Below, one piece after another: positions 688-62,027 of a DNA stretch of 64,000 bases. The translations under genes were made by a program, and so were the position numbers. Location of the stretch: positions 40,872,969 through 40,936,968 of the forward strand of contig NC_057719.1 in assembly GCF_004010195.1 (NCBI RefSeq), written 5' to 3'. The stretch comes from Chiloscyllium plagiosum (Eukaryota). Under the pieces are notes generated by a model. It was not told the DNA's origin. It saw only the letters and a program-made list of their open reading frames with translations, and ran no database searches. Numbering within the stretch: position 1 is the stretch's first letter; each line of letters starts with the position of its first letter.

Positions 688-868
688 ACATTTAGCCAAT
701 TTAGCATGCCCAATTCACCTAACCTTCACGTTTTTGGAATTTGGGAGGAAACCCACACAGACACAGGGAGAATGTGCAAACTCTACACAGTCAGTTACCT
801 GAGGCAGGAATTGAACCCAGGTCTCTGGCACTGTGAGGCAGCAGTGCTAACCACTGTGCCACTGTGCT
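688..868 (-). mobile_element. HE1/V-SINE-type tRNA-derived SINE, partial
   Basis: Reverse complement reads GCACAGTGGCACAGTGGTTAGCACTGCTGCC...GGTTCAATTCC (A/B boxes) and includes the TTTGCACATTCTCCC central domain. Confidence 0.85.
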
Positions 869-9352: not shown

Positions 9353-9559
9353 GAGCTGAAAATGTGTTGCTGGAAAAGCGCAGCAGGTTAGGCAGCATCC
9401 AAGGAACAGGAGAATCGACGTTTCGGGCATAAGCCTGAAGAAGGGCTTATGCCCAAAACGTCGATTCTCCTGTTCCTTGCATGCTGCCTGACCTGTTGCG
9501 CTTTTCCAGCAACACATTTTCAGCTCTGATCTCCAGCATCTGCAGTCCTCACTTTCTCC
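9353..9559 (+). mobile_element. Fold-back Penelope-like mini-element, family A
   Basis: Near-perfect inverted arms of about 80 bp join at CTGAAGA (9435). Flanking repeat tcactg(a)gtattg at 9340-9352 and 9560-9571. Confidence 0.85.
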
Positions 9560-12790: not shown

Positions 12791-13012
12791 ATGGCTAATG
12801 TCATGGCTGAAATATTCATCATGGCCTAGGTGTTGTATTCTTTTCACCATCAGGTTATTCAAATATGATAAAGAAGAAATTAACTGTGGAGCTGCCTAGT
12901 CAGAACACTCACCAAGTGTCAGATAGATTTGCTAGTATAATTTGAGGAGGAACTGCCTGGATTCCGAGCAAAGGGCCCAGTTATAAATGTTAAGCCAGTG
13001 TAGTCATTGTCA

Positions 13013-19293: not shown

Positions 19294-19477
19294 AGCAGCA
19301 CAGAAGCTGAATCTCTCTTCAAAGCAAAAGAAAAACCATCCACTTCTCCAGCATTCGCACGAGCTGTCAAACAGCAGAACAAATTTCAGTGGTATTTTGC
19401 AAGTGTCCCCTCCCCCCGCACCACCATGCCTTTTGAGGGCTGTATGTAAAGTCAAGGACAACCCAGGCATTGGAAAG
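19294..19477 (+). CDS. KIF26A: KIF26A internal exon, pre-motor segment ([10 protein letters not shown]...[23 protein letters not shown])
   Basis: Polypyrimidine tract plus cag acceptor; donor AAG|gtatga; 184 nt, phase 2 to 0. The peptide matches the KIF26 pre-motor motif. Confidence 0.95.
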
Positions 19478-19953
19478 GTATGAGCTAAGTCTGCTAACAG
19501 TTGTCTTTGATGCGTGTCACTGCTGAAATCTGTGTAAATATAGATACATTAAATAAATCCTGCATTTCTGTTAAACTTAATTTTAAATGAATATCATTTA
19601 AATATAATAAAACACATCTCTTGATAAAGTTTTATTACTTACAGATCATTTGATGATGTTTTGTAGACATACATTTGTAAACTTCTGGAATGTTCCTGGC
19701 TCCAAGCTGAAAACTGCAGTGCGTATATCACTTTGTAGTGCATTCATAGGGCTAAGTGGAGTCCACCACATTTCTTTATACACGGTCCAAAGTATAATTT
19801 AACACTGGAATTTATAATATGATCTTAACTTTATCAGTATTAATTGGATGCATGATGTTGAATTTCAGAAGACAAGCATTTCCAGTACAGACCCTCACAG
19901 TCAGTTTGCACACTATTTCATCACCCACAGCAAACTCTATTCTGTTATTTACG

Positions 19954-20255
19954 TAGAAACCCTACAGTGTGGAAGAAGGCCATTCGGCCCATCGAGTCCA
20001 CACCAATCCTTCGAAGAGCATTCCACCCAGACCCACCCTTTCTACCCTGTAACCCTGCATTTCCCATGGGTAACCTACATATCCCTGGATGCTACAGGCA
20101 ATTTAGCATGGCCAATCCATCTAACCTGCACATCTTTGGACTGTGGGAGGAAACCGAAGCATCCTGAAGAAACCCACACAGTCACTTGAAACTGAAATCT
20201 AACCCAGGAGGTCTCTGGCACTGTGAGGGAATTATTCTAACCACTGAGCCACCAT
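19954..20255 (-). mobile_element. HE1/V-SINE-type SINE
   Basis: Same SINE family in reverse orientation. Confidence 0.85.
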
Positions 20256-21686
20256 GTCTCTTACAGAGTCTCTTAATGTTAGGTGCTGTTGTTTAAGGAT
20301 GTCCCTGCACACATGCTAAGTACCCCCATTTTAACTGCAACAGTAGATGGAATCTTATTCCTTCCACTTAGTGGGTTTTAGTAACGGGGAAAGGGAGAGG
20401 CCCCTTTTCAATCAGGTGGAAGGGTATCCAGGTGGGACACTGCCACCATTCTACCTCCACTTGTTAATGGAGGCCCTTCAGTGGATAATTAATACCCCAT
20501 TAATAGGTCTCATTCCACCACTGTTGATAATAACCCAGCAGTAGAGGGGAATGCTTGCTTTTCAGGAAATACAACACACAAACTCTGTTCGCATTGTTTG
20601 AGAATTCCCCAGGGCTGGAGGGGTTAGATGGTCCCCTCACTCAAGAAGATGTTTGTACCTGAACAATACCAGTGGCATTGGGAAGGAGGTGGGGGAGCTT
20701 CTCACTGACAGCCACCTCTGTCCTTGCTGCAATTCCCTTTCCACATGCGCCCCTCTCCTGCTATCCCTCACTTCTTGTGGGTGCAGCAGTCATTGTATTC
20801 CCAGTGGCACTGCCATTTGATTGAGGTGCTGGCCTCTGCTTGGCTGGTAGCTCTTGGTAGGCTGGACCTGCACTCCATAGTCCTTGAATCTTCACGTAAG
20901 TCCCGTGACCAGCCTGTCAAGTGTCCAAGTGGATTAAAGTACGTTGAACTTTGCCAGAAAGAGGAAGCCATGCAACTTTCGAGACCCCTGCCACCTCCAT
21001 AAGATTCTGCACTGTGATGTCATGATGAACTATTGGGTGAAAACGTGATGTTTTGGATGAACAATTCTAAGATTGTACTTCTGAAATAAATATTGATTAC
21101 AAAAGGGAACATTCATTTGAAAGTGATATTTAACATAGCCCTGAAGTTTTTGAAGAATGCTTTTCATCAGCAAATAGCAGCTCTGTGCAGTATTATTGAG
21201 TTCCAATTTATACAGAAAAATAGTTAGAAAAGAAGCATAATTCCTCAATCTTTCAATATCTGAACTTTCATTTATCAGTACAATTCTTTTGTGGATAAGT
21301 GATCAGTCCCTTCTAATCTGTTTTTAACAATAAAAATAGTTGATGCAGAATGATTGATCAACCAGCCGAACTTCTGACTCATGTTGTCTACCTAATGACT
21401 CAATTGAGAGACTCATCTGAAATCTAAAGCTGCCTACACTCCCCAAGCCATTAACCTCCACTGCAGGGAATGAGTACATGTTCATTTGCTGTCATTCTTG
21501 CCTCTGAGTCAGAAAGTTACTGCCCCAGTTCAGGATATGTGCACCTACCTTTTGTTGACCTTTTAGTAACCAGTTCCACTTTTTCAAAAGAACTTTCGTT
21601 TTTGTTAGTTGTGGTGTTCACAAAATACTTTGACCTTTTTTTTAGGGGATCTGATATGGTGTTTTTGAAATGCAAATCTTCTCCAG

Positions 21687-21996
21687 CTTTGACTGGGCTG
21701 ATTTTGGTTAAAGTTAACAGCTGGTTTAGAAACTCCGAAAAGTGTTGCCAGCAAAATATAGGTTTAAAGAGACAATATCACAGATTCATTGAATTTCTAC
21801 AGCATGGAAGCAGGCCTTTCGGCCCATCGAGTCCACACTGACTTTGACTAGGCTGATTTTGGTGAAAGTTAACAGCTGGTATAGAAACTCCGAAAAGTGT
21901 TGCCAGCAAAATATAGGTTTAAAGAGACAATATCGCAGATTCATTGAATCTCTACAGCATGGAAGCAGGCCTTTCGGCCCATCAAGTCCACACTGA
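21687..21996 (+). repeat. Tandem duplication, 2 x 155 bp
   Basis: 21687-21841 versus 21842-21996: 6 substitutions, no indels. Confidence 0.95.
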
Positions 21997-22137
21997 CCTT
22001 CAAAGAATATCCCACCCACTCCCACCCTCCACCCTATCCCTGTAACCTTGCTTCCCCATGCTAATCCATCTAACCTGCATATCCCTAGAACTATGGAAAA
22101 TTTAGCATGGCCAATCCACCTAACCTGCATATCTTTA
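21936..22137 (-). mobile_element. HE1/V-SINE-type SINE, 3' half
   Basis: AATTTAGCATGGCCAATCCACCTAACCTGCA and the GGCCTTTCGGCCCATC tail. Confidence 0.8.
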
Positions 22138-23542
22138 TGTTTGATTTTTCTCAGAATATCTGAAATATTCTGATCTAAGTGGAGGCTAGTGATGGCATTG
22201 TTAGAGTTGAATGCAAGCTTTTGCTGCTGTCCAGGCCTTTTGATTGATACAAGGATTTGGATCTTTTGTCTGACTAACATCTGGAGTTATGAATACATCC
22301 ATGGGATCCGATGAACCAGTAAACCAAATGATGATATAGATAACATAAGGTGATCATGGATGAATCAGAAGACCAGAGTCTCATTGAAGGTGATTGAGGC
22401 AAGCAGTTGGGGATAGGCATCATCTTGAAGAAAAACAACAATCAGCCATGTAATTTGGAATTCTCTCAGTTATTTGGCAATACACAAATATTCAACATAG
22501 GAAGTTGTTCAATAATTTGTGCTGCACATATAAGACAGTTATATTTTAATTAGAAGTAACATATCATAAGCAAAATATTTTTTATATAGATACAAATAAG
22601 TTTGTAATATGGATGAACAGAACCTGATGTTTATTCATCATACGCACAGTTATACAAATAATTTGTACAATTAGTTCTTAAGTACAACTGAAGTTAATTG
22701 TTTAAAGTTCTATATTGTTCAGCATTCATCCCATTTAGACAGTTCCATTTATGACAGCTTATTAAAAAAACAAAGTCCATTAATTCAAAATTGGGACTAT
22801 TTTACTTTTTTTTCTTACATAAATAAGTGATTCATGATGAAGATAATTTTCCTCCTCACAGCCACTGGCACTTGACATTTACTACATTTTTTTTCAATCC
22901 AGAACATGTCTGCATGTAATTTAAGATCTAACTGTTTTGTTCACTGTGAATATATTGGTGCTAAATCAAAACTTAACTTTTAATGTCAAATGAAAATGCA
23001 GGTAACAAGGATAATGGAGAAATTAACATCACTTCAGATCATGGCAAATTAAAATCCAATTGAATTCTCCATGGTTACAACTGTAGACTGCCTTCTGATG
23101 AAAGTGATGGAAATGTTGCATTTACATATTGAATACAAACCATGCCCTGCACTATTACACTGGTAAAAAGAAAAAGAAGTACAAAACACTAATCAAGAAT
23201 ATCTATTATGCTGATCTCATTGTTCTAAGATTCATTTCGTGGTCAGGAACTTTCAGTTGCACTGTTATCTTGACACCTTGTCAATGAGGTAGTTGCTAAA
23301 CATGCCAGTGTTCAAAACAAGCCAATGTAGCTTGTTTACATTCTGCCCAATATCTTTCCAAATGAGAAGGTAAATTGAGTGAAGTATTTAATAAGCAGAT
23401 GATCTGCCGCTGTTCATCTTCAGCCCCTGGCAAAATAGAAAATTACCATATTTCTCAATGCTTGACCTCTGTAGAAATCTGTCCATCCCTTTTCATCCAT
23501 GACTCCAAATGGTTCATGTGAACTCATCTTGACTGCACTTTT

Positions 23543-23670
23543 GGATCAGTGGTGCTGGAAGAGCACAGCAATTCAGGCAGCATCCGAGGACAGGCAAAAT
23601 CGACGTTTCGGGCAAAAGCCCTTCATCAGACCTGGCTCGCAGGTTGGGCAGACTTTAATCCCGCTAAAAA
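23543..23670 (-). mobile_element. Penelope-like terminal fragment with intact hammerhead core plus 41 nt of unassigned sequence
   Basis: Minus strand reads CTGATGA-A-GGGC-TTTT-GCCC-GAAACGTC (23602-23629). Perfect 15-bp TSD cttgactgcactttt at 23528-23542 and 23671-23685. Confidence 0.85.
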
Positions 23671-25613
23671 CTTGACTGCACTTTTCCCTATTTTGAATGG
23701 AATAGGATTTAAAGATTATAAGGTACGCATCACCAGAATTCATGTACAGCACTTTAACCATGCATTACTGACTATTTCAAGAAGAAAATAAGGTCAAAAA
23801 TATCTGATGGTCAAACCAATATATAAGAAGACTTTTAGCCATTTTGGTTTGGGACTTTTAATCATGTAAAGGAACTGACTATCTCCATAGCAGAGTCTAT
23901 TTGAGCCTGATTAATTTCTTTTTTATTGCACTTGACCCTGATTCTCCTCAAGTTGCCTATCTATTGTTGTTTAATACATAATTATAGTGTAGACTGGGCT
24001 TTGGGGAGGGGCGGCATATGTCTAAGACAGAAAAAGGACCTGGATGGTAATACTTAAAAGAAAGCATTTGAAAAGCTAAATTTGCTGTCAGGTTGTTTTG
24101 GTTATCAATATAATTTGGAGGCAACTGTAGGAAATCCAAAGTCTGGTTCAAAACTGCTGGCTATCTTTCCTCTTCTTGTGAATAATGCTGCACAGAAAGA
24201 TAATTGAGAATGATTTGGGTCGAATTGGTCCATTATTTTTGCTTTTTTGTTACGGGGTGCATATATCGTCAATACTCAGGCGGTTTGGCTGAAATCAGAA
24301 ACATGCCATGTCAGGGTCACAGGTATGAATATACATCTCACCACCTTGAAGCACTTTAATCTTCTCTAACTGAAGTCTGGAACTGGTGCTAGCCTGGTTG
24401 ATTTGTTGGAAAACTTGAAGGGATTTGGAGCATGCCTCAGAGAAAGGAGAGAATGAAACTTGAAAAAATGCCCTGAGACAAAACAATTTTTCAAAATTTG
24501 CTCGTGGGGTGTGAGTGTCACTGGTTACTTTCTGTATATACTTGAGTAAAAGTCAACTTTGGCACTTTCTTTTTCCCATTCATTCACACTAGGGTAAGTG
24601 AGGCATGTGCAATCTAATCAACAGGACATTGGAGTGGCCTGTTTCACTCCTCAAGACTTTGACTCACCACTTCACTCTTTCTACAGCTCATAGCTCCTTT
24701 CCTGCTTTCTTCCTCTTTCTCTCTCTCTGTTCTAAGCCCTCGCACACAGATGGGGTTCAGAAGAGAAAGTGGGAAGGTTGGGGGAAGGAGAGAATCAGCT
24801 TGAGGGTGAAGCAGCAATCAGGAGAGCCAGCAAATGAGAGGCTGTGGCATTAAGAAAGACAAGATAGTTGGCCTGCAAGGGAGATATTAACTCGGTCTGA
24901 AGTGATGAATTAAGGTGTTTTGATAACAAATTGGGCCTTGACTTTTATCAATGATTTCTTGAATGTATGTGGTATTTATCAAAATTTAAAATTACTCAGT
25001 ATCATGACTGACTATCAGTGAGGCTAAAGATGAAACCTAGTAGTGTTATGACTCACGAGAATAGCCTACTGAAAATCAAGCCCTGCTATCCTGGAGTCAT
25101 CACAAAATTTGAAGATTTTATGAAGTATGTGAAGTTCCCCAATTTACCTGATTTTCAGGCCCAGGTTGACAAAGCATAGATCAGATTTCTGTACTGAACA
25201 AGAACTAGAGTTTATTACAAATAATAAGACTCTTGCTGCAGTAAAACAGTTATCAACCATCAGCACATAATGCCATTAATGAAATTTTAATCCCCTTATA
25301 AACTCCCCTATACACATACACAGACAAATAGACAGAGTAAAAAAGGTTATAAAAGATTGGAAAGACAGTTCATTAGTCTTTGTTGTCCAGATTCTTAGTT
25401 GAGATGTTCCTTTTGACTCTTCCACTGGCCAGCATATTGTTTCCACTGGTCAGTGAGAAGTACAGGGTAGCTGGTGCACTTAAGAAAAGTCTTTGACTTG
25501 TCAGTTAAAAGTCACAGCATACAACAACTTATGCATGGAAGATTTTCTTCAGGGTTACAGTGTGTTTTGACGAAGAGAAGCTGGAGAAGAGCTGAACATA
25601 TCTCTCCCTGAGG

Positions 25614-26508
25614 AGTCATGGACATATACAGCATGGAAACAGACCCTGGGTGCACCTGTCTAAGCCTACCAGATAGCCAAATAAATCTACCTCCATTTGG
25701 CCCATATCCCTCTAAACCCTTCCTATTGAAATACTCTTACAGATGTCTTTTAAATGTTGTAATTGTACCAGCCTCCACCACTTCCTCTGGCAGCTCATTT
25801 CATACAGGCACCACCCCTTCGGTCCCTTTTTAAATCTTTCCCCTCTCACCTTAAATCTATGCCCTCCAGCTCTGGACTGCCCCATCCCTCAGAAAAGACC
25901 TTGTCTATTTACCCTATTCATGCCACTCCATAAGGTCACCCCTCAGCCTGCAATGCTCCAGGGAAAATACTCGCAGCCTATTTAGCCGCCCCCTGTCGCT
26001 CAAGCCCTCCAACCCTGGCAACATTCTTTTAAATCTTTTCTGAACCCTTTCAAGTTTCACAATGTCCTTCGTAAAGCAGAGAGACTAGAATTGAATGCAA
26101 TATTCCAATAGTGGCCTAACTAACAGTTCCCAACTCTGATACTCAAGGGGCTGACCAATAAAGGAAACCATACCAAATGCCTTCTTCACTATCCAATCTA
26201 CCTGTGATTGTACTTTCAAGGAACTATAAACAAGCACTCTTGTTCAGCAAGACTCCCTAGTACCTTACCATTAAATGTATAAATCCTGCCCTGATTTGCC
26301 TTTCCAAAATGCAGCACCTCGCATTTATCTAAATTAAACTCCATCTGGTCCATTGGCCATAAGATCAAGATCTCATTGTAATCTGAGGTAACCTTCTTTG
26401 CTGTCCACTACACCTCCAATCTTGGTGTCATCTTCAAACTTACTAACATTCCTTCTATGTTCACATCCAAATCATTTATATAAATGATGAAAAACAGTGG
26501 ACCCAGCT
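25614..26508 (-). mobile_element. CR1-type (HER1-like) LINE 3' fragment
   Basis: Reverse complement of the family at 30296-32141; includes SKFEDDTKIGG-like RT codons near 26410-26442. Confidence 0.85.
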
Positions 26509-29500
26509 AACTTCCTCCCAGCTCCAAGCTGTTCAGTTACGTGAGAATGAACCACACAGTTGTTGCCAGGTAAAAGGGTGTCTGTCATTGATAACTGGTC
26601 ACTGATCCCATAGACCAATTAACTTCTTGATGCCAGGAAAAGCTGCATTCATCCAACCCCTCAGCTCCAATTAGGCTAAAACCAAATTTCAATTACTGCT
26701 TATTCAAGCAGCTATTTACAATGCTTGCAAAGGTAAGTTATGTGTTTCAAAGCTGCAGCCACTCTTTCAAACATTTTGTTTTATTTTGTTTCCATTCCCA
26801 GTTTTGAAAAGCGCAAAATAAAAATAAAATACTGTTACTCTAATGGATGTTATTCCAACCTATAACATTAACTGAATGAAGTATAAAAATAAGTCTGGTA
26901 TTTTGGGGGAATTTGTGGCTTTTGAAATGAGATTTTATTAAGTAAATGTTCTGCTGAAAACAAAGTGACTCAAAAATCTTAAATGTTTCATGTCTCATGC
27001 TGAGATTTTCAGGGAAATTGTAGCTATGCTACTGAAAATGTAAAAGGTTTTTGTTTGATATGATTTATTTACTCAGTAATTAAGATGGATTCCTGTGCAA
27101 ATTTTTATGCACCCACCATTAAAAAAAAATCTTGATTGAAAGGGTTAGCCACCTGCAAATCACAGTAAATCACAGTCCCAGCACAACTATATATATTTCC
27201 ACCGTCACCCAAGTAAGCTTCAGGGAAATCCAGCCTGAAAGTTTGCAGCTTTCAATTTCCAGTAGCAACACTCATACTCCCATTCACAGAGAAGAGAACT
27301 GATATGATTTCTTTTGCACAGTAAAGTAAGATGACTTACCAATTGAAAATATGATTGGGCAAGCAATCATTTTTACCTGCATAAGAAGGGGTCAGTAAAA
27401 CTCAGTCTAATGTTGCATTGTCATTTGTAAAAACCAGAATAGTTCTACCCTTCTTTTGCACTTTTTACTATCTATGCTTCATAATATTAATATATTCAAG
27501 AACTGGTTATTGGAAGGTATGTAAGAAGAGTTCTAATTTCATTTTTTAGAGTTATTTTATTCTTTTCTGAGATTAATGTGCTTATTTTGAGATGAAGCAT
27601 TTATGAAACTGTAGCGTCGCTGAAGTATATCTCATTATCCCTCTCTTGGAATACTTTAAAGCAGTAGATGATACCTTTCTTTCTAAAACACTTTTCTGAA
27701 CTATCTGCTCAACAAATGTCTTGAAGTGGTGTTCTACTCTTATGAACAGCGTGTAAGTGCTTTACAATTACAAAGCTTCTGTCAGTTTTTCTGACAGAGA
27801 CCTCTTACGTGAGACATGTGGCAAAAAAGAAAGGCAATTAAACTCTCCAGTCTGACACAAAATGTGCTTAAAAGGGTCGATGCCAATAAGGTTTGATGCC
27901 TTTACTTTTTTTGAGTGCAGTGAGAAGCCTTCTACTGGCTCTTTATAAGATAACTACAAAGGGACAAGGATGTTGCAGCTATTAAACTTGCAAATGTGAC
28001 ATACATAAACTCACTCTCATTAGAAGTACGAAAGCTATTGAGGTGCTTTTTTATAACCTTGTTGGTGTCAGAAATAGTGCATCCGAGAACACTAGAGAGG
28101 CTTATGAAACTTAATGATTTCAACTGGCATGAAAGGAATTACTTACTTAAACAGTGTATCTTGACCAACAACAAGCTGCCTTATGAAAGTAATGTATAAC
28201 AGATTTGGAGAATAAGGCTTTCTATTTAACGTGCAATTATTCAGGTACTCAACTATAACTTATCTCATTTTCACAACTAAATTCACGATGAAATATTTTA
28301 ATTGAGGATGCTGCTGAGATAAGGAACAGAAAATGTGCTTTGTTTGCATCTCAGTTACTCTAAGAGACAGCTTTAATTCATTATAATAGCAGATGGATCA
28401 CAGAAGAATGCCCTTGCAACCTATAATTTCACAACGGTAGGCAAATAACACAAGAGTGATGTCAGAAGTGGCTGACTTCATCCTTTTGATATCTTGATGA
28501 CAAATCAAGTTGGTAATATAATCCATTGGTGTAACATCTCAGCTGAACAGTTTTTGGACTAAAATCTGTTGAAGCTATGGAGTTGTGAGTTCTTGTAGTG
28601 TTGCGCTTTAGAACAGTTACAGCATTAGAGCTGAAACAACAAATATTCCTGATGTTGTGGCTTTGATATTTGGCTGCTTAGATTAGAAATATAATTAACA
28701 ACAATCAATGTCAAGTTGCCAAAGGCACCATCTTTAATTGGAGGACTGATAAAATTATAATGCTTCTTGGAAGTTTGCAGCTAATTTCGCTTGTTTTTTT
28801 TTACTATCAGTACAACATTTTGAGTTATTCAGTATTGATTCTTACAGGATATTTTAATTGGATGCTTATGACATTCAGATCGCATTATTGTATATGGCCT
28901 AATTCTGCTCCTATATCTTACAGAAGCCATCAGATGATCATTAAAATAGATTATTGTAAACTAAAAGGAGAAGTGGGGAAAAATGAGAGACCTTTAAACA
29001 CACAATAACAAAAGCATGTTAAATAAAAATATTTTCTCAGTAGGTACACTGACAACAGAAATTACAATGTTTTATATGATGGTGCTTTGTTTTAATGGCC
29101 TGGATTATATGGTGGGAATGACTATAAAACTGTCAGCATTTCCATCATTTTGCCACTGAAATTAACAGCAACTTTGGGATTTGGCACTGTGAAGAATATT
29201 GTGAAATTCAGAATTTGCTGTCAGTAATCATTGCTCCTTCAGAGTGTACACTGTTGAAGCCCCCTCCAGAGTGTAATCCTGAAGTAATCAACACAATCTT
29301 GCTGTAAAACCCCTTTGAAAGTGTTGCCCCTTGGGTTTTGAAAGCATTCTCATGCCACAATTATGGTGCCAACCATACTCATTGGTGCTGAAAACATGAT
29401 TATGTATTTGTGAAGTATCAAACTTTTTTCATCATGATGAAATTTTACATATTTTACTACTTTAAATTGTAATTAAAGGTGAATGATCAGTGTTTGTAAC

Positions 29501-30295
29501 TTCCTAGTTTGCGTTTAATGAGAGTACTGCAATGTAATTGGCTGCCCATCCTTGCTGACATCACTACTATTGGACACCTGGAGAGCCCCTTGACTTTGCA
29601 CTAAACTTAAACTGAGATTGGGAAATGGGAGATGCACAGCGATTGCCAGTTCTTTGTTGGTAAATGGCAAACACAGGTGCTCCAGTTTTGACTATAACAT
29701 GCCACCCAACATTGGTTTTGCTTAACTATAGTTATAAAAAAAAATAAGAACTAGAAGCTTGAGTAGATCATACTCCCCCCATTGAGCCCGGTCTCCCATT
29801 CAATTTGATCAAAACCTAAACTTCTGCCTGAGTTCCATTTTTCTATCTGTTCTCCAATTGATTTTCTGAGTGACTGGAAATCTGCCTATCTTTACTTGAT
29901 GGTGGAATATCCACTATCTCCTTCTAGATTGGAAAATCTAAGGTTCACAACATTTAACTGATGATATTTTTCCTCATCACAACCCAAAGCAATTAGCCCC
30001 TCATCCTGAAATTGTGTTCCTATGTTTTTGATTCAACAGCCAAGAGAAATAGCATCTCATTGTCTACCCTTTCAAATCCCTTCAGATTCCAATGAAATCA
30101 CCTCTCATTCTTTTAAACTGCAGAGAGCACAGATCCATAGAACAGTCCTAACATCTCCAGGACTAATCTAGTGAACCATTGCCGCATTACCTCTGATGCG
30201 ATTATATACAGTTTCTCAGGTGTGTATGTTCCACCAAAATCCTGTAGAATTGTAGCAAAACTTCCTCATTCCTGTATTTTCATGAAGCCCCATAA

Positions 30296-32141
30296 GGATC
30301 TGATCAGGTGTATCCTAGAACGCTGTGGGAAGGTCGGGAAGTAATTGCTGGGCCCCTTGCTGAGATATTTGTATCATCGATAGTCGCAGGTGAGGTGCCG
30401 GAAGACTGGAGGTTGGCTACCGTGGTGTCACTATTTAAGAAAGGAGGTAAGGAAAAACCAGGGAGTCTGACATCAGTTGTGGGCAAGTGTTTGCAGGGAA
30501 TCTTGAGGGACAGGGTTAACATGTATTTGGAAAGGCAAGGACTGATTAGGGATAGTCAACATGGTTTTGTGCGTGGGAAAAATGTCTCACAAACTTGACT
30601 GAGTTTTCTGAAGAAGTAAGTAAGAGGATTGATGACGGCAGAGCAGTAGACATGATCTATATGGACTTCAGTAAGGCATTTGACAGGGTTTCTCATGGTA
30701 GACTGGTTAGAAAGGTTAGATCTCATGGAACACAGGGAGAACTAGCCATTTAGATACAAAAATGGTTCAAAGATAGAAGACAGAGGGTGGTGATGGAGTG
30801 TTGCTTCTCAGAATGTGGAGGCCTGTAACCAGTGGTGTGCGACACGGATCGGTGCTGGGTCCACTGCATTTTGTCATTTATATAAATGATTTGAATGTGA
30901 ACAGAGGAGGTATAATTAGTAAGTTTGCAGATGACACCAATATTGGAGGTATAGTGGACAGCGAAGACGGTTACCTCAGAGTAAACGGGATCTTGATCAA
31001 ATGGGCCAATGGGCTGAGGAGTGGCAGATGGAGTTTAATTTAGATAAATGTGAGGTGCTGCATTTTGGAAAAGCAAATCCGAGCAGAATTCACATTTAAT
31101 GGTTAGGTTCTGGGGGGTATTGCTGAGCAAAGAGACCTTGGAGTGCAGGTTCTTAGCTCCTTGAAAGTGGAGTCGCAGGTAGATAGGATAGTGAAGAAGG
31201 CATTTGGTATGTTTTCCTTTATTGGTCAGAGCATTGAGTATCAGAGTTGGGAGGTCATGTTACGGCTGTACAGGACATTGGCTAAGCCACTTTTTCAATA
31301 TTGCGTGCAATTCTGGTCTCCTTCCTATCGAAGGATGTTGTGAAACTTCGATTAGATTACTTTACTGTGTTGTAACAGGCCCTTCGGCCCAACAAGTCTA
31401 CACCGACCCTTTGAAGAGCAACCCACCCAACCCATTCCCTTACATTTACCACTTCAGCTAACACAGGCAATTTAGCATGGCCAATTCACCTGACCTGCAC
31501 ATCTTTGGATGTGGGAGGAAACCGGAGCACCCGGAGGAAACCCACACAGGCACGGGGAGAATATGCAAAGTCCACACAGACAGTTGCCCAAGGCGGGAAT
31601 TGAACCCGGGGTCTCTGGCGCTGTGAGGCAGCAGTGCTAACCACTGTGCCACCTTGAATGGGTTCAGGACAGATTTACCAGGATGTTGTCAGGGTTGGAG
31701 GATTTGAGCTATAGGGAGAGGCTGAATAGGCTGGAGCTGTTTTCCCTGGAGCATTGGAGGCTGAGGGGTGACCTTATAGAGGTTTATAAAATCATGAGGG
31801 GCATGGATAGGGTAAATAGACAAAGTCTTTTCACTGGGGTGGAGAAGTCTAGAACTAGAGGACATAGCTTAAGGCTGAGAGGGGAAAGATATAAAAGGTA
31901 CCTAAGGTGCAGCTTTTTCACATGGTTGTGTGTGTATGGAATGAACTGCCAGAGGAAGTGGTGGAGGCAAGTACAAATGTAACATTTAAAGGGCATCTGG
32001 ATGGGTTATACATAGGAAGGATTTGGAGGGATATGGGCTGGTTGCTGGCAAATGGGACTAGATTAGGTAAGGATATCTGGCCGGCATGGACGAGTTGGAC
32101 TGAAGGATCGATTTCCATGCTGTACATCTCTAAGACTCTAT
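30296..32141 (+). mobile_element. CR1-type (HER1-like) LINE, 5'-truncated RT region
   Basis: Peptides VPEDWRLATVVSLFKKG, SQHGFVRG, YMDFSKAFD, SKFADDT, YCVQFWSP and RLRGDLIEVYKIM, with frameshifts and stops. Confidence 0.92.
31349..31652 (-). mobile_element. HE1/V-SINE-type SINE inserted in the CR1 LINE
   Basis: Near-full-length SINE. The LINE rejoins as gtgaaactt / gaatgggttcag, with ctt repeated at both junctions. Confidence 0.92.
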
Positions 32142-32144
32142 GCC

Positions 32145-32180
32145 ATTCCTGAAGAAGGGCCTGTGCCCGAAACGTCGAAT
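32145..32180 (+). ncRNA. Minimal type I hammerhead ribozyme motif, family A, intact
   Basis: Stem I ATTC/GAAT; core CTGAAGA plus an extra A; stem II GGGC-ctgt-GCCC; GAAA; palindromic ACGT stem III. GUC cleavage triplet ends at 32176. Confidence 0.8.
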
Positions 32181-32272
32181 CTCCTGTTCCCTGGATGCTG
32201 CCTGACCTGCTGTGCTGTTCCAGCAATAAAGTTTCAACTTTGATCTCCAGCATCTGCAGACCTCACTTTCTC
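32145..32272 (+). mobile_element. Penelope-like terminus, family A, inserted at the CR1 tail
   Basis: Terminal sequence ending CTCACTTTCTCC. Flanking repeat ctctatg(c/t)catt at 32136-32147 and 32273-32284. Confidence 0.85.
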
Positions 32273-34413
32273 CTCTATGTCATTTGCCTCACTAATTGCT
32301 TGCTTACCCCTATGCTACCTTTGCATTCATTGTGAGAGTGCACCCAAGTATCTCTGAACATCACATTGAAAGATTTCTCACATTAAAAAAGAAATGTCAT
32401 TTTCTATTCTTTCTACTGAAGTGTATAACCGCAACTTAATTCATTTCTGTCACCATGTTGCCTATTCAGTAAACCCACCTTTTCTAACTTGTGTCGTCTC
32501 TCATCTTAAATGTCCACCGAGCTTTGTAACATCAACCAATATCGACATTTTATTCTTCATCTTTTTAAGTTATTAATACTTGTTGCAAAAAGCTGAAGCT
32601 CCAGTACTGATACCTGTTGCATTCCACCAATTACAGTTTGCCAACTTGAAAAACCTCTTGTTTCTGGCTGCTCTTAAGCATTCCCAAATCCATGAGCCTT
32701 TCTTCTGTTCATTCTCCTTTGATGTGGCACATTATCGAATGGCTGTTTTAAAATCCAAGTATATATTGCCTCCCGGAAGGGCTCTTGGGGGGCAGTGGTA
32801 GTATCTCTATGTTAGGCCAGGAGGGCTGGGTTCAAATACCACCTATTCCAACCGTTAGTGGTGTCGATAGTAGTCCAACACCTACTCCAAGAGTGTATAA
32901 ATAACATCATTGAACAGGTTCACTAGAAAATATCTACAACATCTACCGATTTTCCATATTCACCCATCCTCAAAAGAATGTCAGTAAAATTGTCAAATAT
33001 GTTTTCCATTTGGTAAAAGCACATTGACTTTGTCTGATCATGATCAGGGATTTTAAGTGCATTGTTAAGACTTACTAATAATAGATTTTAACACTTCTCT
33101 GACAAGTGATGTCAGACATAACTCGTCTGTTGTTTTCCGTTTTCTCTCTACTTACTTTGAATAGCAATGTCATGTTTGATAACTTCCAAATTGCTGGGAT
33201 TGCTGTAAATTCTAGTGAATTTTGGAAATCTATAACCAATGCAATTATGTCTTTTAGCGTCTCAGGATGCGAGCCATCCAGTTCTGAGAAATTGTCAGCT
33301 TTCAGTCTCTAAGTTTCTCCAATAACTTTTCTTCTTGCTATTAATTACTGTAAGTTCTTCACTCTTACTAGCCCCTTGGGAACCTTCTATTTCTGCCTTC
33401 TATTGTGAAGGCAGACACAAAATTCTTCAACATCTGTGCAATTTCCTTATTTCTCCATGCCAGTTAATGACCAATGATTAATTTAACTGCTGTCTTTCTT
33501 TACTTTTATTTACTTTTAAAGGCGCTTCCAATTTATTACTATATTCCTGGCAAGGTTTCTCATGTTATCAACTTTTCAACTTTTTAAGCCCTTTAAACTT
33601 TCTAAAACTCTTCCAATTCTATGGTTACCTGTATAATTGCAGTATTATGAACCCCCTTTAAACTAATATTTTCCTTAATTAAAAATAAGAAATAGATGGA
33701 ACCTTCATAACTCCTAAATGATATAGGAATAGGCAAGTCAATTGGGAAAACCAGTCAAACTCAGCAGAAATGAGGTTCTCAACTTCAAGAAAAGTAATCC
33801 AAGTCTGCAACAAGCATTGAACAGCGAGATGATAATCTCACTAATGAGTGGCACAAAGTCTATTTGTATCAAATTGTATATATTAGCATGCAGTTTTTAC
33901 CTAATATCACCTCATTAATGTGCAATTTTCCATCCTCCGAGATGCCTGAGAGAGATTAGATGATGACAATTCCCAACTTGAAAGTCAAAGTGGGTACCAG
34001 GTGATTCCAACTCACCACTTGCTCCTCTGGATTTTTATTTTGGAAGAGTCACCAGCATCTCAGGGTGCAGTCAATGGGCAATGACTGTCTGCATTCTTGT
34101 TCCATGGACTTTTGCATTGGACCAGCCTCACCACACCCTCACGGCACATGTCTGGTCTTCTTAGAGAATAGTTCTTCACTGCAGTGCTGCAGTGTCAAGT
34201 ACATTGGTACCTTTCATTGTAATGCTGCTGCCAGGACACTTTGTGCAGAGGGGTGGGTACCCATCTCATGATCAGGTAATAACATTCTCTGATTAAAAAG
34301 GAAGAATCTAAAATGGCTGCAATGGACCTCTTGCCATAGATTGAGCAAACTTCAGGAACCATCCATGCTGAAATGACCATTTCTATCTAAAGATCTCAAA
34401 AGTGGACAAATGA

Positions 34414-34690
34414 GCACAGTGGCTCAGTGGTTAGCACTGCTGCCTCACAGCACCAGGGTCCTAGGTGAAATTCTAGCCTCAGGCGACTGTCTGTGTGAAG
34501 TTTGCACATACTCCCCATGTCTGCGTGGGTTTCCTCCCATAGTCCAAAGGCATGCAGGGCAGGTGAATTGGCCATGCTAAATTGCCCATAGTGTTAGGTG
34601 CATTTGTCAGAAGGTAATGGGTCTGGGTAGGTTACTCTTCAGAGTCGGTGTGGGCTGAAGGGCCTGTTTCCACACTGTCGGGAATGTAAA
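34414..34690 (+). mobile_element. HE1/V-SINE-type SINE
   Basis: A-box TGGCTCAGTGG, central domain and LINE-derived tail. Confidence 0.88.
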
Positions 34691-37600
34691 AAAAAGGCAT
34701 TTACGTCTCCTACTTTAATTTACATTTGTATGATAATTTCATATATTGGGAGATGAAAGGCCTATTTGCAAGTTAGCCAGCTTGGAAAGACAATGGAGAT
34801 AGACTTTAAAATACACACTGAACTATATTGCAACAGCTGCTTTTGAGCAGCAGAATAGAGAGAAGGAAAAATAAATCTGTGATGACAAGGGATGGAACTC
34901 TCTCTTTCCTCACCTGTTTCTGTCATTATCTTAGAATCCAGCACCCAATGAGAAAGCAAATTAGGGAAATAGCTATTCACTGAGAACACCAAACTATTTA
35001 AGGATTCTGCTGCTGTTGGATTCAAGTTAACCGCTAAACCACTGTGATCTCTAGTTAGAGTTGATTAACAGCTCAAAGGCTCTAAGGACTGTGTGATCTT
35101 TATTTTCCCTCTCCGACCTAGAGACCAATTTGAAATTTATTACCTGTATTTGGGTTTGCATTTGATGTTGTGGTTTTAGTATCTTTCAGTCATGTTAATC
35201 AATACTAAAAATTCTCTTTTACACAAGTAATGCTTGGTAATTGACCCCTTCATTTTCTTTTGCACTACATTTAATTGAAGTGTGATAGTTGCATTCTAAA
35301 AGATAGTAAAAAAATTGTGATAAACCGAGAGGGGAATTAAAAAGATGCAAACCGATTTACCTCTCCTCACCCAACCATAACAAATGAAGAACAAAAAGAT
35401 GGAAAAATATAAAGAAACTGAAGGTCCATAAATAAATAGTGATAAAATAGAGGAGCTTTATTTTGCTTTGCTATTCGTTGTTTTAACATATGTATCTATT
35501 TCTCACTGTCTTCAAACCAGTGAGACAGACCACCAACCAGAATCTGTTCCAAAATGCTCTTGTGTGTTTAATGAACTTCAGAAGGTTCTTTGATCTTCAA
35601 AGGCATCACATCTGTACTTGACTGTGTTTTCACCAAATGTTCACATTGAACTATTTCCAGATGGGGGCCACTGTGTATTGCTTAGGGATTGAATGCAGAT
35701 GCTGATTATTACTTCCTAATGGCTGCCAGGTCAAAATCACACATCTCTGCACACATCGGAGTTTGATTCTGGGGTTTTCAGGTTTGAAAGAATTGTTCTA
35801 ATTACTTTAAATTAAACTTTGATTAATGTATTATTACACTTAATAAATATTCAGTTCACAAAATTCTATGGTCTGTTATCCGTCCTCTATCATGAAAGAT
35901 TCTGGTATGTAGTATTTTATAGTTGCTACATACATGAAGCTCCTCCCAAATGCTGAGGTCATTACTGTAGCTGACTTTCTGGCCTATCATTTGGGGAAAT
36001 GCCATTCTGATAAAATCTAGCAATACAATACGTAATGGTCTCTCATTGTAAATCACTGCTAAATCAGATCTAGCTAATATCTTCTATCTATATAATTGCA
36101 TTTTTAGAAGGGATGATTGTGATGGTGATCAGAAGGGATGGCTCACTTTCATTTCGAATCCACAGCGCAAGTGTGGTGGTTTTTCATTGCCTGGTCTTGA
36201 GATTCAGATGGCTGGACTTTTTTCTTATAATCTTGTTATTTATTTTTGAGCCATTGAGAAAGCTCACAAATAGCTCTTTAGAAAAACAAGAATCTGGTGT
36301 TGACATTTAGAAGGTTCACAATAGGAAGGAAATCTGACAAAAGGTTGATACCGACAAATCAAGTCTGTAATTATTAGTTTTACTTTAACAATTACTCAGT
36401 TAATTTGTTACTCTTGTGTAATCAGAGAATTGTAGCAGTACCAATACAGACCACAAATGATCCAATGTGGTATAATTCACTTCTGACTATACTGCAAAAG
36501 TCAAATGGTTATGATAGCAACTAATCCCCCACAAATTGTTTCACTGTAAATTAATAATCTCTATTCTCTCCACAGTGGCTGATTTCTGAACATAATGCTA
36601 CTGCAAAAACTGCAAATTAAGTAGGGATTAATTTTCTATGTCAGTGCTAAACTCTTTTAGTGCCATGTATCATGTTTAAATTATTTATTATCTTTTCAAA
36701 AAATTAAAACAGAATTTCACCCTGAAAGTTGCTCTGTACACAAACAATGAATATGAAATGTGAAAATGAGCTGAATGAGCAAATTAATTTGTAAAGTCAT
36801 ACACAGCTATCAATTCCAATTAAGTGCACAGTAAAATCGTCTCTGAACTGAGACCTATATAATGTGATTTACACTGTGGTGCAATAATATTGGATCTCAT
36901 CAGTGGGATTCACAGCAGTATTAATTTAAGGTTAATTAAATAAAATGCTAAAAACTCTCAGTCTGAAGGTTTGAGAGTAGCTGTGTAATAAGCTTATAGC
37001 CTGGCTGTAGAATATATATGTACTTAATCCTTTTGGGTACCAGGCAAGATGAACCTATTAACGCAGTGGTCAGTGGTTGTTATCAAGGTACAAGTGGGAG
37101 GCATAATGATTATAGTTTCGATATGTTGATCTTTATTGTGCAAGATTGAATTCCTTATCATTCTCTAACAGTCAATGTGGAGTTGTTTGTAGTGCCTTCA
37201 TCAGAAATATACCAGAAGCTGGATGAAAAAAAAAGATTAGTGTCGGGAATCACTGGTTTGCTCATTCAACTAAGACTGTACTATAATACATCAGCAAAAT
37301 AAATTGAAAATTGTAATTAAGATGGAGTTAATTGGATACATTGAAATTGTATGGGAACATTGCAATTCTGTTTATAGACTAATAGCTCCATTGGAATAAC
37401 TGAAAGCTTGCACAAAATGATATGAATTATAAACCTGACCTCATTCAGTTTATATGAGTAATGAAAACTTCGAATCTGCCACTTCTGAGAGTCTTGCTAT
37501 TTAAAGTAGCTGTTTCATTTATTTTAAGATTTGTTTGGTTTCTAGTTCTGTCTTTTCACACTGCTGTCAATACTAACAGTATTCACTGATGAGGACAGAT

Positions 37601-38179
37601 GCTGAGGGCAGGTAGTCATGAAAGCATGGATTGTTTGAGACACTTGTGTGATACTGATGTTCTTATCTGTCCTTTGTTTATGTATGAATTGTAGGTTCTT
37701 AAGAATGTATTCCATGTTTGTTTTCTCTGTGGGAAAGGGTGGTAGAAAAAAATGATTGCTTACATCTTTATTAATTATCATAGATGTTGGTATATGAATG
37801 CACCTTTGATACCTTCAAGACTTGCAGTTGACTTACATGCCAAGTATAAAAAAATGTGGGTTGTTGCTATTTTTGTTGTCTGACACATAGAATCTGCTCC
37901 ATGTGGACAGGTTTTAATTTCCAGCACATCTTCTCTACATCACCTCTGTTGGTTGCTTGATTTCTTGCACCCAGCTATAAGGCAAGTATAACATGCATTA
38001 TTTGGGTGAAAAGCTGAGGCTTTATAGCTTAACATGTCATCGCTGAGAGAAAGGTTGCAAACTTATACATTGAATAAATGTAAAATCATGATTTTTGTGC
38101 TGAAAATATACGTTTTTTTTTCTTCTGTTGTTTTTGAATATTAACTGTACTGGTGCTTACATAGAGTCACCACATGGAA

Positions 38180-38631
38180 AGACCGTAACAGATATAGGAG
38201 CAATTAGGCCATTTGACTCTTCCAATCTGCTCGGCCATCATGGCTGATATGTTTCTCAGCACAAATTCGCCTACCTTCTCCCTAGTAGCCTTTGATGCCC
38301 TTACTAATCAAGAACCAATCTATCTATGTGTTAAATACACTCAATGACTTGGCCTCCACAGCCCTCTGTGGCAATGAGTTTCACAAATAAACTACCCTCT
38401 GGCTGAAGAAATTTCCCCTCATCTTGAGGGTCCCCCTCCATTCTGAGGCTGTCCCCTTGGGTCCTAATCTCTCCTACTAATGGAGCTCTCCATTGAGGCC
38501 TCTCGGTATTCTGCAAGTTTCAATGATATTCCCTCTCATCCCTCTAAACTCCCATCGAGTACAGAGCCAGAGTCCTCAACACTCCTCATATGACAAGCCC
38601 TTCATCGCCGTGATCATTCTTGCAAACTCCT
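38180..38631 (-). mobile_element. CR1-type LINE 3' end running into the assembly gap
   Basis: Same family as 4390-4742. Confidence 0.8.
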
Positions 38632-39131
38632 NNNNNNNNNNNNNNNNNNNNNNNNNNNNNNNNNNNNNNNNNNNNNNNNNNNNNNNNNNNNNNNNNNNNN
38701 NNNNNNNNNNNNNNNNNNNNNNNNNNNNNNNNNNNNNNNNNNNNNNNNNNNNNNNNNNNNNNNNNNNNNNNNNNNNNNNNNNNNNNNNNNNNNNNNNNNN
38801 NNNNNNNNNNNNNNNNNNNNNNNNNNNNNNNNNNNNNNNNNNNNNNNNNNNNNNNNNNNNNNNNNNNNNNNNNNNNNNNNNNNNNNNNNNNNNNNNNNNN
38901 NNNNNNNNNNNNNNNNNNNNNNNNNNNNNNNNNNNNNNNNNNNNNNNNNNNNNNNNNNNNNNNNNNNNNNNNNNNNNNNNNNNNNNNNNNNNNNNNNNNN
39001 NNNNNNNNNNNNNNNNNNNNNNNNNNNNNNNNNNNNNNNNNNNNNNNNNNNNNNNNNNNNNNNNNNNNNNNNNNNNNNNNNNNNNNNNNNNNNNNNNNNN
39101 NNNNNNNNNNNNNNNNNNNNNNNNNNNNNNN
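38632..39131. other. Assembly gap of 500 N
   Basis: Run of N; the round size suggests a placeholder length. Confidence 1.
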
Positions 39132-39409
39132 GTTAAATTTTAAAAAAAATATTAGGCTATGCAAGATTGATGTGAATTACTGCAGTTTAGGTTAGGTATG
39201 AGATACACTCACTCAAAGGAGTTTCCAATATGTTCTGCCTTCATCTGGTTTAACTTCAAGGTATTAAACCTGGCTTCGGACAATCACAGTTACATCACTG
39301 TATTGTGCCAGTATTTGGAAAATGGTCTTTGCTTTTCTATTCCCTTATGATGAAACTGCAAGATACATTACAATTGACAGAATTTAGTCCATCAAGTGAC
39401 TGTTCAATT

Positions 39410-39915
39410 ACAAAATCAGAAATTGCTGGTTAAACTCAGGAGGTCAGGCTGCATCCATGGAGAGAAAGCTGAGTTGACATTTTGGGTCTAGTGACCCTTC
39501 TTCAGAACTGATTGTGGCTTGGTTAGTATATATGCTAAAGCAGGGATAGGGAAATGAGAAAGGAGTAAATACTAGATAGAGATGGAGCCCAGAGAGAGAG
39601 AGAAAACAGTTGGGCAGACAAAGGAGTGGGTAAAGGTCATCCTGGGAAAATGAATAGCTAATGGAGATCATTTGTGGCTGATGAGGGATTGTTTGTGGTT
39701 GCAGCCCATGTGATGACAGAGCCTGATTTGTGGGGGTTTGGGTAAGGACATAGGGCCTGAGCACTTCCTAAAATTGTTGAGTGTGATTTTGAGTCCTGAT
39801 GGTACAGGGTTTCCAAGTCGAAAATGAGATATTGTTCTTCCAGTTTGCATTGAGCTTCGATCGAGAACTTTAGATAAGTAAGGAAGCTCGAGACTGAGAT
39901 GTTGGCCAACAATCA
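39410..39915 (-). mobile_element. Penelope-like 3' end, family B: endonuclease C-terminus plus decayed hammerhead
   Basis: Peptide KLEEQYLIFDL. Minus strand reads AGTT-CTGAAGA-A-GGGTC-acta-GACCC-AAAATGTC-AACT, with stem I intact and the core CpG-decayed. Confidence 0.8.
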
Positions 39916-40585
39916 AGACTAACTGAAAGGGTTGTAATTGGCTGGTTTAGATTTGTTCTGCTTTTTCTATCAGGACATATTTGGGCAATTTTCCACTTTT
40001 CCAGTTAGATGCCAGTGTTGTAGCTATACTGGAAGAGCTTAGCCAAGATAAAACTTATTTCAGAGCACAAGTCTTCAGTAGCATTGCTGATATGTTATCA
40101 GGGCTTTTCCAGTGCCTCCAACCATTTTTTGATATCATGTTGAGTGGAATCTGTGATGTGAGGGACCTCAGAGTGGGGCTATTATGATCAATTAACTGGT
40201 CATTCTTACCATTACCCTCATTATTGTCACTTAACAGTTCCTGTGCTTTGTACATATTGCCACAGACAATGAACTTCTCGGTACGAGATTCAATGATCAG
40301 TTTGAGTATTACATTATGCACGTGAATGAGGTTTTGCAATCCAACCCTGTTAATTGTGTAAACTGAAAAAGTCAAAAGCAATCCTGTTCGCTTTTTGGAA
40401 TTAGAGTTAACAGCAGCCGCAGCAGCAGTGATACCATTGATAAGTGATTCCTACCTCTGTGTTTATGATCTGTGTAAGTGTTCATAATTGCAAGCACAAT
40501 TGCATTTATTACTAATATTGCTTCTTTTAATGGTAGACTACTGATACAAGTATCTCCACAACATTGCACAGAATCACAGAATCAT

Positions 40586-40712
40586 TATCCTGATGGAGGG
40601 TTTTTGCCTGAAACTTCGATTTTCCTGCTCCTCGGATGCTGCCTGACCTGCTGTGCTTGTCCAGCACCACACACTCGACTCTAATCTCCAGCATCTGCAG
40701 TCCTCACTTTCA
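40586..40712 (+). mobile_element. Penelope-like terminus, family A, with decayed hammerhead
   Basis: CCTGATGGAGGGTTTTTGCCTGAAACTTCGAT...CTCACTTTC. Confidence 0.8.
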
Positions 40713-41329
40713 CCCACTTTTGAAAAACAGACATTTTGGAGATAATTATTTTGAGGCAACTCAAATGGTGCATTTAGCATATGGTATTTCACTCTTCATA
40801 TGTTGTCGCTTAGCAATCACTGTGACTGTCTCCCCTTCATTGCCCATATCCCCACCCTGTGATGTTCGAACTACGTCACTGCATAATAACTGTGAAGTGA
40901 GTGTGCCTAGATTGCTGAATGATTTATGCATGACTTATGATGTTTGGTGCTCTAGTGATTGCTATGCTAGAGGCACATTGTCTTTCTTCTCCACGTTCTG
41001 CAAAGAGAACAAGTAGTAATTTAGAAACTAAACGCACTTACCTATTGTGTGTCATATTTATTTTACATGATGTATAAAGAATATACTTGCTACACATGAA
41101 GTATTTGAAACCACCTGCCCATGTTTTTGGGAGTTGATGCCCCAGTGATGTGTGGCAAGTTAGTCCTTTATCTGAATTTCTTGCTTTATAACTTTGCTCT
41201 GATAGGAGAATAACATTAAACTGTTAGAATATTTGTAATTGTTGATTGGCCTGTAAAGAGAATAGTGAAAAAATGTCTTGTTCAATGCTGGTTTTGTGCA
41301 CTAAACTGATTATATTGCTTTCCTTTCAG

Positions 41330-42041: not shown

Positions 42042-42963
42042 CACTATGGCTCAGTGGTTATCACTGCCGCCTCTCAGTGTCAGGGACCCAGGAGGTCATG
42101 TTGCGGCTGTACAGGCCACTTTTAGAATATTGCATGTACATCTGGTCACCTTCCTATTGGAAGGATATGATGAAACTTGAAAGGGTTCAGAAAAGATTTA
42201 CAAGGGTGCAGAGTTGGAGTATTTGAGCTATAGGAAGAGGTTGAATAGGCTGGGGCTGTTTTCCTTGGAACGTTGGAGGCTAAGGGGTGACCTTATAGAG
42301 GTTTGTAAAATCATGAGGGGCATGGATAAGATAAATAGACAAAGTCGCTTCCCTGGTGTGGGGGAGTCCAGAACTAGAGGGCATAGATTTAGGGTGAGAG
42401 GGGAAAGATATAAAAGAGACCTAAGGGGCAACTTTTTCAGGCAGAGGGTGGTATGTGTATAGAATGAGCTGCCAGAGGAAGTGGTGGAGCAGAGTACGAT
42501 TGCAACATTTAAAAGGCATTTGGATGGGTATATGAATGGGAAAGGTTTGGAGGGATATGGGCCGGGGGCTGGCAAGTGGGACTAGATTGGGTTGGGATAT
42601 CTGTCGGCATGGACGGGTTGGACCGAAGGTTCAGTTTCCGTGCTGTACACCTCTATGACTCTACCATTGATTCTTGGCTTGGGCGAACATCTGTATGGAG
42701 TTTGCACATTCTTCCCCTATCTGCATGGGTTTCCTCTGGGTGCTCCAGTTTCCTCTCACTGTCCAAAGATGTGCAGATTAGGTGGATTGACCGAGGTAAA
42801 TTGCCCACTGGTGTACAGGGATGTGTAGATTAAGTGGATTAGCCATGGGAAATACAGGTTACAGGGATAGAGTAGGGTCTGGGTCTGGGTGCAATGTTCC
42901 TTGGAGGGTTGATGCAGATTCAATGGGCTGAATGGCCTCTTTCCTCACTGTAAAAATTCTACG
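42042..42963 (+). mobile_element. HE1/V-SINE-type SINE split by a CR1 3' fragment (42091-42663)
   Basis: The SINE head ends at GGGACCCA (42090), the CR1 fragment follows (RLRGDLIEVCKIMRG, tail CTCTATGACTCTA), and the SINE resumes at about 42666. Confidence 0.88.
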
Positions 42964-61700: not shown

Positions 61701-62027
61701 TACGGTTTTATAGGTGGGAGGATGGTTAAAACAAAGGAATGTACAACAGGCCATGATGTGCAAACTAGGAGCTGTCACCACCATTAAAAGTCATTTGAGA
61801 AGATGTGTAAAGGTTAAAAGATAAATAGCAAGACAGATGAATTTGGAAAAGGAATTCCAGTAATTAACAACAAAAAGTTGAAAGTCTTATTCTTAATGAG
61901 GGTTGAAACAAGGAAAAATACACAACATGGAACGAGTTCAAGAAGAGATGTTTGGCTTGAGGAAGCCTCAGAGTTTGGGTGACATAAGGTCACAAAAGGG
62001 TTTAAAGACAATAATGAGATCTGTGAA

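What the first reader, a model, noticed from the sequence alone, without database searches (positions are those of the whole stretch)
32145..32180. Intact minimal hammerhead ribozyme on the sense strand of a KIF26A intron (family A, GUC site)
Seen: AUUC-CUGAAGA-A-GGGC(cugu)GCCC-GAAA-CGUC-GAAU. All core nucleotides are present, with a 4-bp stem I, a 4-bp stem II and a loopless palindromic ACGU stem III. Established: Penelope-like elements carry minimal type I hammerheads that are thought to cleave as dimers through a palindromic stem III, and an extra nucleotide between A9 and G10.1 occurs in natural hammerheads. Inference: the KIF26A pre-mRNA carries a potentially cleavable site after C32176, probably needing a partner copy.
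Basis: partly seen in the sequence, partly recalled or inferred. Interest (0 to 1): 0.72.

Follow-up and report, generated by a model that had tools for sequence, protein, structure and literature searches.

The report
Penelope retrotransposon stub with hammerhead
The small hammerhead-ribozyme motif in this shark KIF26A intron is real, but it is the front end of a 130-base stub of a young Penelope-type jumping gene with thousands of identical copies genome-wide, a known kind of element that likely does not cut the host transcript.

Summary
The 36-nt minimal type I hammerhead is present letter for letter on the sense strand of a 21.8-kb KIF26A intron. It is not gene-specific. The same 36-mer has 8,512 exact copies in this genome. 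It is the first 36 nt of a 130-bp pseudo-LTR-plus-tail insertion with a 12-bp target duplication, and the same repeat follows the RT/GIY-YIG ORF of a Neptune/Nematis-type Penelope-like element elsewhere. Such motifs are described (PMC4209133). Cleavage of the pre-mRNA is unlikely: stem III needs a partner, no intact family-A sense copy lies elsewhere in the window, and the dimer is not favoured.

Side result: 57 of 99 copies begin at the ribozyme's front edge and 2 of 99 at the cut site. Copies starting at the first A carry a G before it in 1,230 of 2,214 cases, against 26 of 100 at a control position. This suggests a capped transcript that starts at the ribozyme and is copied uncut. The scan has reported this kind of motif, and this idea, before on other DNA.

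The parts
32145..32180 (+). Minimal type I hammerhead motif: stem I 32145-48/32177-80, core 32149-55, extra A 32156, stem II 32157-68, GAAA 32169-72, palindrome 32172-75, predicted cut after C32176
   Evidence: Sequence; it is the monomer MFE fold, stem II pair probability 0.99, stem I 0.3-0.5, falling to 0.04-0.15 in longer contexts
32144..32238 (+). Pseudo-LTR portion of a young Penelope-like element, up to the short 3' end
   Evidence: 95 nt identical to the repeat that follows the RT/EN ORF in L161; 38 of 99 copies end 0-7 nt past 32238
32239..32274 (+). About 36-nt PLE 'tail'
   Evidence: 53 of 99 copies end 32-42 nt past 32238; in longer copies the ORF's ATG follows about 36 nt further on
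32136..32147 (+). Left copy of a 12-bp target-site duplication (1 mismatch); overlaps the element's first bases
   Evidence: Sequence
32273..32284 (+). Right copy of the target-site duplication
   Evidence: Sequence
31641..32143 (+). 3' end of an older LINE into whose tail the stub inserted (CR1-like: recalled, not shown by a call)
   Evidence: 88% identical copy at 42209-42439 and tail match at 42625-42668; Pfam gave no family for its 113-aa frame
19478..41329 (+). Host intron of the KIF26A-like kinesin gene (about 21.8 kb; ends approximate)
   Evidence: tblastn of P0001 and P0003; GT and AG seen at the ends; Kinesin PF00225 E=2e-12 on a downstream exon

Best explanation
This is the hammerhead at the front of a 130-bp stub of a young Penelope-like retrotransposon inserted in a KIF26A intron, and it likely stays uncut in the host pre-mRNA because it lacks the partner copy and the element protein it would need. 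Shown: the motif, the copy number, the pseudo-LTR/tail/target-duplication anatomy, and the link to an RT plus GIY-YIG ORF. Inferred: the element's RNA likely starts, capped, at the first A of stem I inside an initiator-like TCATTCC. Reverse transcription likely begins inside the RNA at one of two sites about 95 and 130 nt downstream and runs off the 5' end of uncut RNA. That would give this stub or, when both target strands prime, the head-to-head twins.
For: 8,512 exact 36-mers and 18,614 exact matches to a downstream 30-mer. In loci such as L144, L146, L147, L157, L159, L160 and L161 the hammerhead lies about 159 nt after the end of the EN ORF. The family ORF hits RVT_1 (E=1.3e-7) and GIY-YIG (E=1.2e-4) in L151. 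Among the 99 anchor copies fetched from the start of C1: 3' ends are bimodal; 25 of 43 solo copies have a duplication of 7 bp or more (2.4% in mismatched controls); 24 of 24 head-to-head pairs have one short end and one tailed end; 57 of 99 5' ends fall at -6..+2 of C3 and 2 of 99 at +26..+30 (cut site +28). With the same pattern design, 1,282 copies begin at the first A and 41 begin 11 nt upstream. G precedes that A in 1,230 of 2,214 non-C cases, against 26 of 100 two bases upstream (hand count; Fisher p=7e-9) and a 29% background. A sister subfamily gives 13 of 20 (hand count). An extra G marks capped full-length L1 insertions (PMC11702581, passage). Two internal RT start sites and uncut RNA as template were shown in vitro for a Poseidon PLE (PMC11167929).
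Against: No cleavage or transcription-start assay was possible. Of 15 solo G-copies with a traceable duplication, the G lies outside it in 7 and inside it in 8; 16 more solo G-copies had none traceable. The G excess over the first control (8 of 22) was not significant (p=0.09). L151, which gives the Pfam RT hit, has no hammerhead match in the fetched stretch, and L161's GIY-YIG score is below the cut-off (E=0.002). No gap-free full-length element was recovered (L138 has an N gap and an inversion). Introns upstream of the window were not searched for partners. The energy model ignores Mg2+, tertiary contacts and proteins.
Confidence: 0.85

Rival explanations
1. The site is cut in KIF26A pre-mRNA at a measurable rate by pairing in trans with one of the thousands of other copies, helped by the element's protein or a host chaperone.
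For: Core and palindrome are intact. Family RNA is present in a single-cell run (492 reads laid). The anole PLE hammerhead cleaves when its protein is added (PMC11167929). The stub keeps the tail region.
Against: Net gain from dimerising is only the 4-bp palindrome; the swapped dimer is -13.1 against -16.1 kcal/mol for two monomer ensembles. No place where many reads begin or end was found on the element, though that library is poorly suited to show it. Few genomic copies begin at the cut site (2 of 99).
Confidence: 0.09
2. The insertion has been adopted as a regulator of KIF26A, like conserved intronic hammerheads of amniotes (recalled).
For: It is the only intact family-A sense copy within the gene's part of the window.
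Against: It is 99-100% identical to many unrelated loci, so it is intact because it is young. 33 of 98 sampled copies are just as intact. It has no monomer stem III.
Confidence: 0.02
3. For the 5' ends only: copies stop at the ribozyme's edge because the element's endonuclease nicks its preferred ATT there, or through target microhomology, not because the RNA starts there.
For: The anole enzyme prefers 5'-ATT-3' (PMC11167929). Many junctions share bases with the target, including this copy.
Against: It does not predict a G excess specific to that one position. No GAG precedes the start in the 50 G cases listed, so fold-back on stem I does not supply the G (hand count).
Confidence: 0.2

Closest known systems
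Minimal hammerheads (min-HHR) of metazoan PLE pseudo-LTRs (Cervera and De la Pena 2014, PMC4209133; text parts 1-2 of 4 read)
   Same: Type I, short helix I, extra nucleotide between 9 and 10.1, G10.1-C11.1 pair, palindromic 15.2-16.2, mostly solitary copies from truncated PLEs, thousands per genome
   Different: Host is a shark (not named in the parts read); stem II is 4 bp rather than 7-8 bp as in Schistosoma; this subfamily is very homogeneous
Poseidon element PAc of Anolis carolinensis (Frangieh 2024, PMC11167929; parts 1-2 of 4 read)
   Same: Hammerhead in the pseudo-LTR, two 3' end positions bounding a tail, copies apparently made from uncut RNA
   Different: There the ORF starts inside stem II; here the ATG lies about 36 nt past the tail. 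This family has the CX4CxxC linker that Penelope/Poseidon lack
EN+ PLE insertions with inverted pLTR, one-sided tail and TSD (PMC3846280, PMC8557442; passages read)
   Same: Head-to-head inversions, 30-40-bp tail at one end only, short target duplications, solo pLTRs
   Different: Those passages propose self-priming on antisense RNA or endonuclease resolution; the ends counted here fit two cDNAs run off a common 5' end
Non-LTR retrozymes (bioRxiv 10.64898/2026.07.22.740005; part 1 of 5 and passages read)
   Same: PLE-derived non-coding units with type I hammerheads; one chondrichthyan sampled
   Different: Retrozymes are tandem arrays; this copy is a single dispersed stub

Membership tests
Minimal type I hammerhead of PLEs | CUGANGA and GAAA boxes, UH site, stems I and II | tested here: met
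Minimal type I hammerhead of PLEs | Extra nucleotide 9/10.1, G10.1-C11.1, palindromic stem III | tested here: met
   features listed in PMC4209133
Minimal type I hammerhead of PLEs | Core kept while stems change between families | tested here: met
   Families in this genome keep CUGA-GA and GAAA with stem II GGGC/GCCC, GGAGC/GCUCC or GUUA../..AC, palindrome ACGU or AGCU, and stem I AUUC/GAAU or CAC/GUG. Those motifs were picked by a core descriptor, so only the stem and palindrome swaps are independent; the larger A2 subfamily has a U-U mismatch in stem I
Minimal type I hammerhead of PLEs | Self-cleavage as a dimer | not testable with these tools
   Needs an assay; the energy model does not favour the dimer
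EN+ Penelope-like element | RT followed by C-terminal GIY-YIG in one ORF next to the repeat | tested here: met
   (pieced from several partial copies)
EN+ Penelope-like element | Pseudo-LTR, tail, inverted copies, target duplication | tested here: met
Neptune/Nematis clades | CX2-5CxxC linker between RT and EN | tested here: met
   CX4CxxC upstream of the GIY-YIG motif; definition in PMC8557442
Neptune/Nematis clades | Placement in an RT phylogeny | not tested
   No reference set or tree
Non-LTR retrozyme | Tandem units each with a hammerhead | tested here: not met
   Single copy; the nearest sense-strand relative is 8.4 kb away and broken
Canonical monomeric hammerhead (Rfam) | Stable stem III; match to Rfam models | tested here: not met
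   No Rfam hit at gathering score; stem III unpaired in the monomer

The most novel reading that the evidence does not exclude
The hammerhead is the first 36 nt of the element's capped mRNA, so cutting after C17 would remove a 32-nt capped leader: a self-decapping switch that fires only when the dimeric element protein holds two RNAs together. The same two-RNA complex, priming from both target strands at the two internal start sites, would explain why every head-to-head pair examined has one short and one tailed arm. That would give PLE hammerheads a role in ending translation rather than in making the template.
Probability: 0.25. Interest if true: 0.55.

Novelty: new member of a known kind. 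Interest (0 to 1): 0.15.

Why it matters
As a KIF26A feature it matters little: it is one young insertion among thousands. The family is useful as a natural record of the PLE copying cycle, which is still open. Thousands of near-identical stubs give a sharp 5' end, a cap-like G and complementary 3' ends, which make the transcription start and the role of the hammerhead directly testable.

Tried and rejected
Rfam: no hit. Pfam on the window's decayed PLE and LINE frames: none of 5 hit, nor did the large kinesin tail exon. Sequencing runs: no RNA holder listed; this is no evidence on expression. Of two raw RNA runs laid on 31950-32550, one gave 492 reads, 488 only partly fitting (paralogues) and none on the unique flank 32286-32550; the other gave 0 (2% and 6% of the runs read, single-cell poly(A) libraries). 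Two contig sets also had no depth on that flank. A second lay gave no result, so whether the insertion is polymorphic is open. Lunse 2017 (PMC5785218) is not held; I saw only its title and a review's account (PMC6765202 passages). Considered and rejected: chance motif; cut-site truncation as the source of stubs (2 of 99); a splice acceptor at the front of stem I as in D. virilis (no AG before the start and no shared upstream exon in solo copies); purifying selection on individual copies (core substitutions 15 of 759 vs 6 of 1,932 outside, inflated by truncations at C3/U4). Paper searches listed no paper on a cap-derived G or a transcription start at PLE hammerheads; I judged this from listings plus the passages read, the library lacks most subscription papers, and supplements were not opened. 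A look-up of scan notes by sequence was empty.

Full report
Observation. The window reads exactly as the finding states at 32145-32180. A strict descriptor (stem I of 3 bp or more, stem II of 4 bp or more, palindromic stem III) finds 2 motifs in the window against a mean of 0.007 in 150 simulated windows. The hammerhead arrangement without stem III is the monomer's minimum-energy fold (-7.1 kcal/mol). Stem II is firm, while stem I is weak and mostly lost in longer contexts. Rfam gives nothing. Shark and chimaera KIF26 proteins place exons on the + strand at 19232-19480 and from 41327 on, so the motif is sense in a 21.8-kb intron. The two best protein hits are sharks labelled KIF26B; no other hit among the 120 listed carries that label and most are labelled KIF26A.

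What it belongs to. The motif opens a repeat with 13 other partial or full relatives in the window. The exact 36-mer occurs 8,512 times in the 3.56-Gb genome, evenly on both strands, and the reversed control 0 times. Related subfamilies add at least 31,970 and 16,606 pattern matches. The window copy spans 32144/5-32274 between two 12-bp repeats with one mismatch, at the tail of an older LINE. In longer copies the same sequence follows, by about 159 nt, an ORF ending in a GIY-YIG domain with a CX4CxxC linker, and RT motifs lie upstream. Pfam confirms RVT_1 and GIY-YIG in L151. L161's repeat is identical to the window's for 95 nt. Beyond the tail, other copies run on into an ORF start (361 matches). 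This is the pseudo-LTR of an endonuclease-bearing Penelope-like element of the Neptune/Nematis type by its linker (PMC8557442 passages). No gap-free full-length copy was recovered.

How the stubs arise. I fetched the first 100 listed matches on C1 of a 30-mer downstream of the ribozyme and recovered 99. 3' ends are bimodal: 38 within 7 nt of 32238 and 53 at the tail end. All 24 head-to-head pairs have one end of each kind, and 19 of 24 have a duplication of 8 bp or more. 5' ends pile up at the ribozyme's front edge (57 of 99 within -6..+2 of C3, peak at -4/-3), and only 2 of 99 lie within 2 nt of the cut site. So the copies come from RNA that was not cut, which agrees with the in vitro work on the anole element (PMC11167929, parts 1-2). 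The peak A sits in TCATTCC, which fits the initiator consensus (recalled). Genome-wide, copies that start at this A are preceded by G 1,230 times and by A or T 984 times. Two bases upstream the share is 26 of 100 listed (hand count; p=7e-9, or 2e-5 after collapsing 19 identical junctions), and 11 bases upstream it is 8 of 22 after dropping 14 identical junctions and 5 point mutants from 41. In L1 an extra G reflects the cap (PMC11702581 passage). Against this, the G lies outside the target duplication in only 7 of 15 traceable solo cases, and no RNA start was observed.

Does it cut KIF26A RNA? By hammerhead topology (inference), the cut at 32176 would be made by a partner's core in a strand-swapped dimer. 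The four other sense family-A cores in the window (2318, 9435, 14703, 40590) are broken. The intact copy at 23629 is antisense. The intact sense copy at 63408 has a different palindrome and lies past the last coding exon. Introns upstream of the window were not searched. The swapped dimer is predicted 3 kcal/mol less stable than two monomers (crude model). Published minimal PLE hammerheads did not cleave as monomers and cleaved weakly as dimers (PMC4209133). Reads from one single-cell run cover the element without any begin or end pile-up but come from paralogues, which is weak evidence.

Comparison and verdict. The motif meets every sequence feature of the minimal PLE hammerheads; cleavage is untested. 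It is not a retrozyme (no tandem array) and not a canonical monomeric hammerhead. The scan's notes list 105 findings of this kind in at least 19 genomes, two of those shown from this genome already proposing that the RNA starts at the ribozyme. I had reached that idea before seeing them, and those notes are not independent support. New member of a known kind; interest 0.15, carried by the family-level end statistics rather than by this copy.

Noticed in passing
window 13010-14803: Decayed PLE of a sister subfamily with inverted pseudo-LTRs flanking RT-thumb and endonuclease remnants; both hammerhead cores are broken.
   Followed up: partly
window 9353-9561 and 62027-62232: Head-to-head twin stubs of families A and B, as in the genome-wide pattern.
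   Followed up: partly
window 63405-63440 +: Intact family-B hammerhead with an AGCU palindrome and a UA site, downstream of the last KIF26A coding exon.
   Followed up: partly
window 77-691 -: Open frame resembling the N-terminus of the PLE ORF of a related family.
   Followed up: no
G000 C8:24157659-24158538 and similar sites: Short tandem arrays (194-224-bp spacing) of the repeat plus ORF start; these are retrozyme-like and would be the places where dimer cleavage in cis is possible.
   Followed up: no
L101, L103, L106, L033, L053: A composite unit with inverted pseudo-LTRs and captured flanking DNA recurs at 99.6-99.8% identity over 0.7-1.4 kb at unrelated loci, suggesting a mobilised non-autonomous element.
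   Followed up: no
listings: Several identical 5' junctions recur many times (13 of 100, 14 of 41, 19 of 100). One equals two arms that both start at the first A, joined with a single extra G.
   Followed up: partly
L005:1285-1324 and L209-L238: The more abundant A2 subfamily keeps the same TCATTCC start although its stem I then has a U-U mismatch, hinting that this strand is constrained as a promoter element as much as a helix.
   Followed up: partly
window about 38614-39136: Assembly gap of about 520 N inside the host intron.
   Followed up: no
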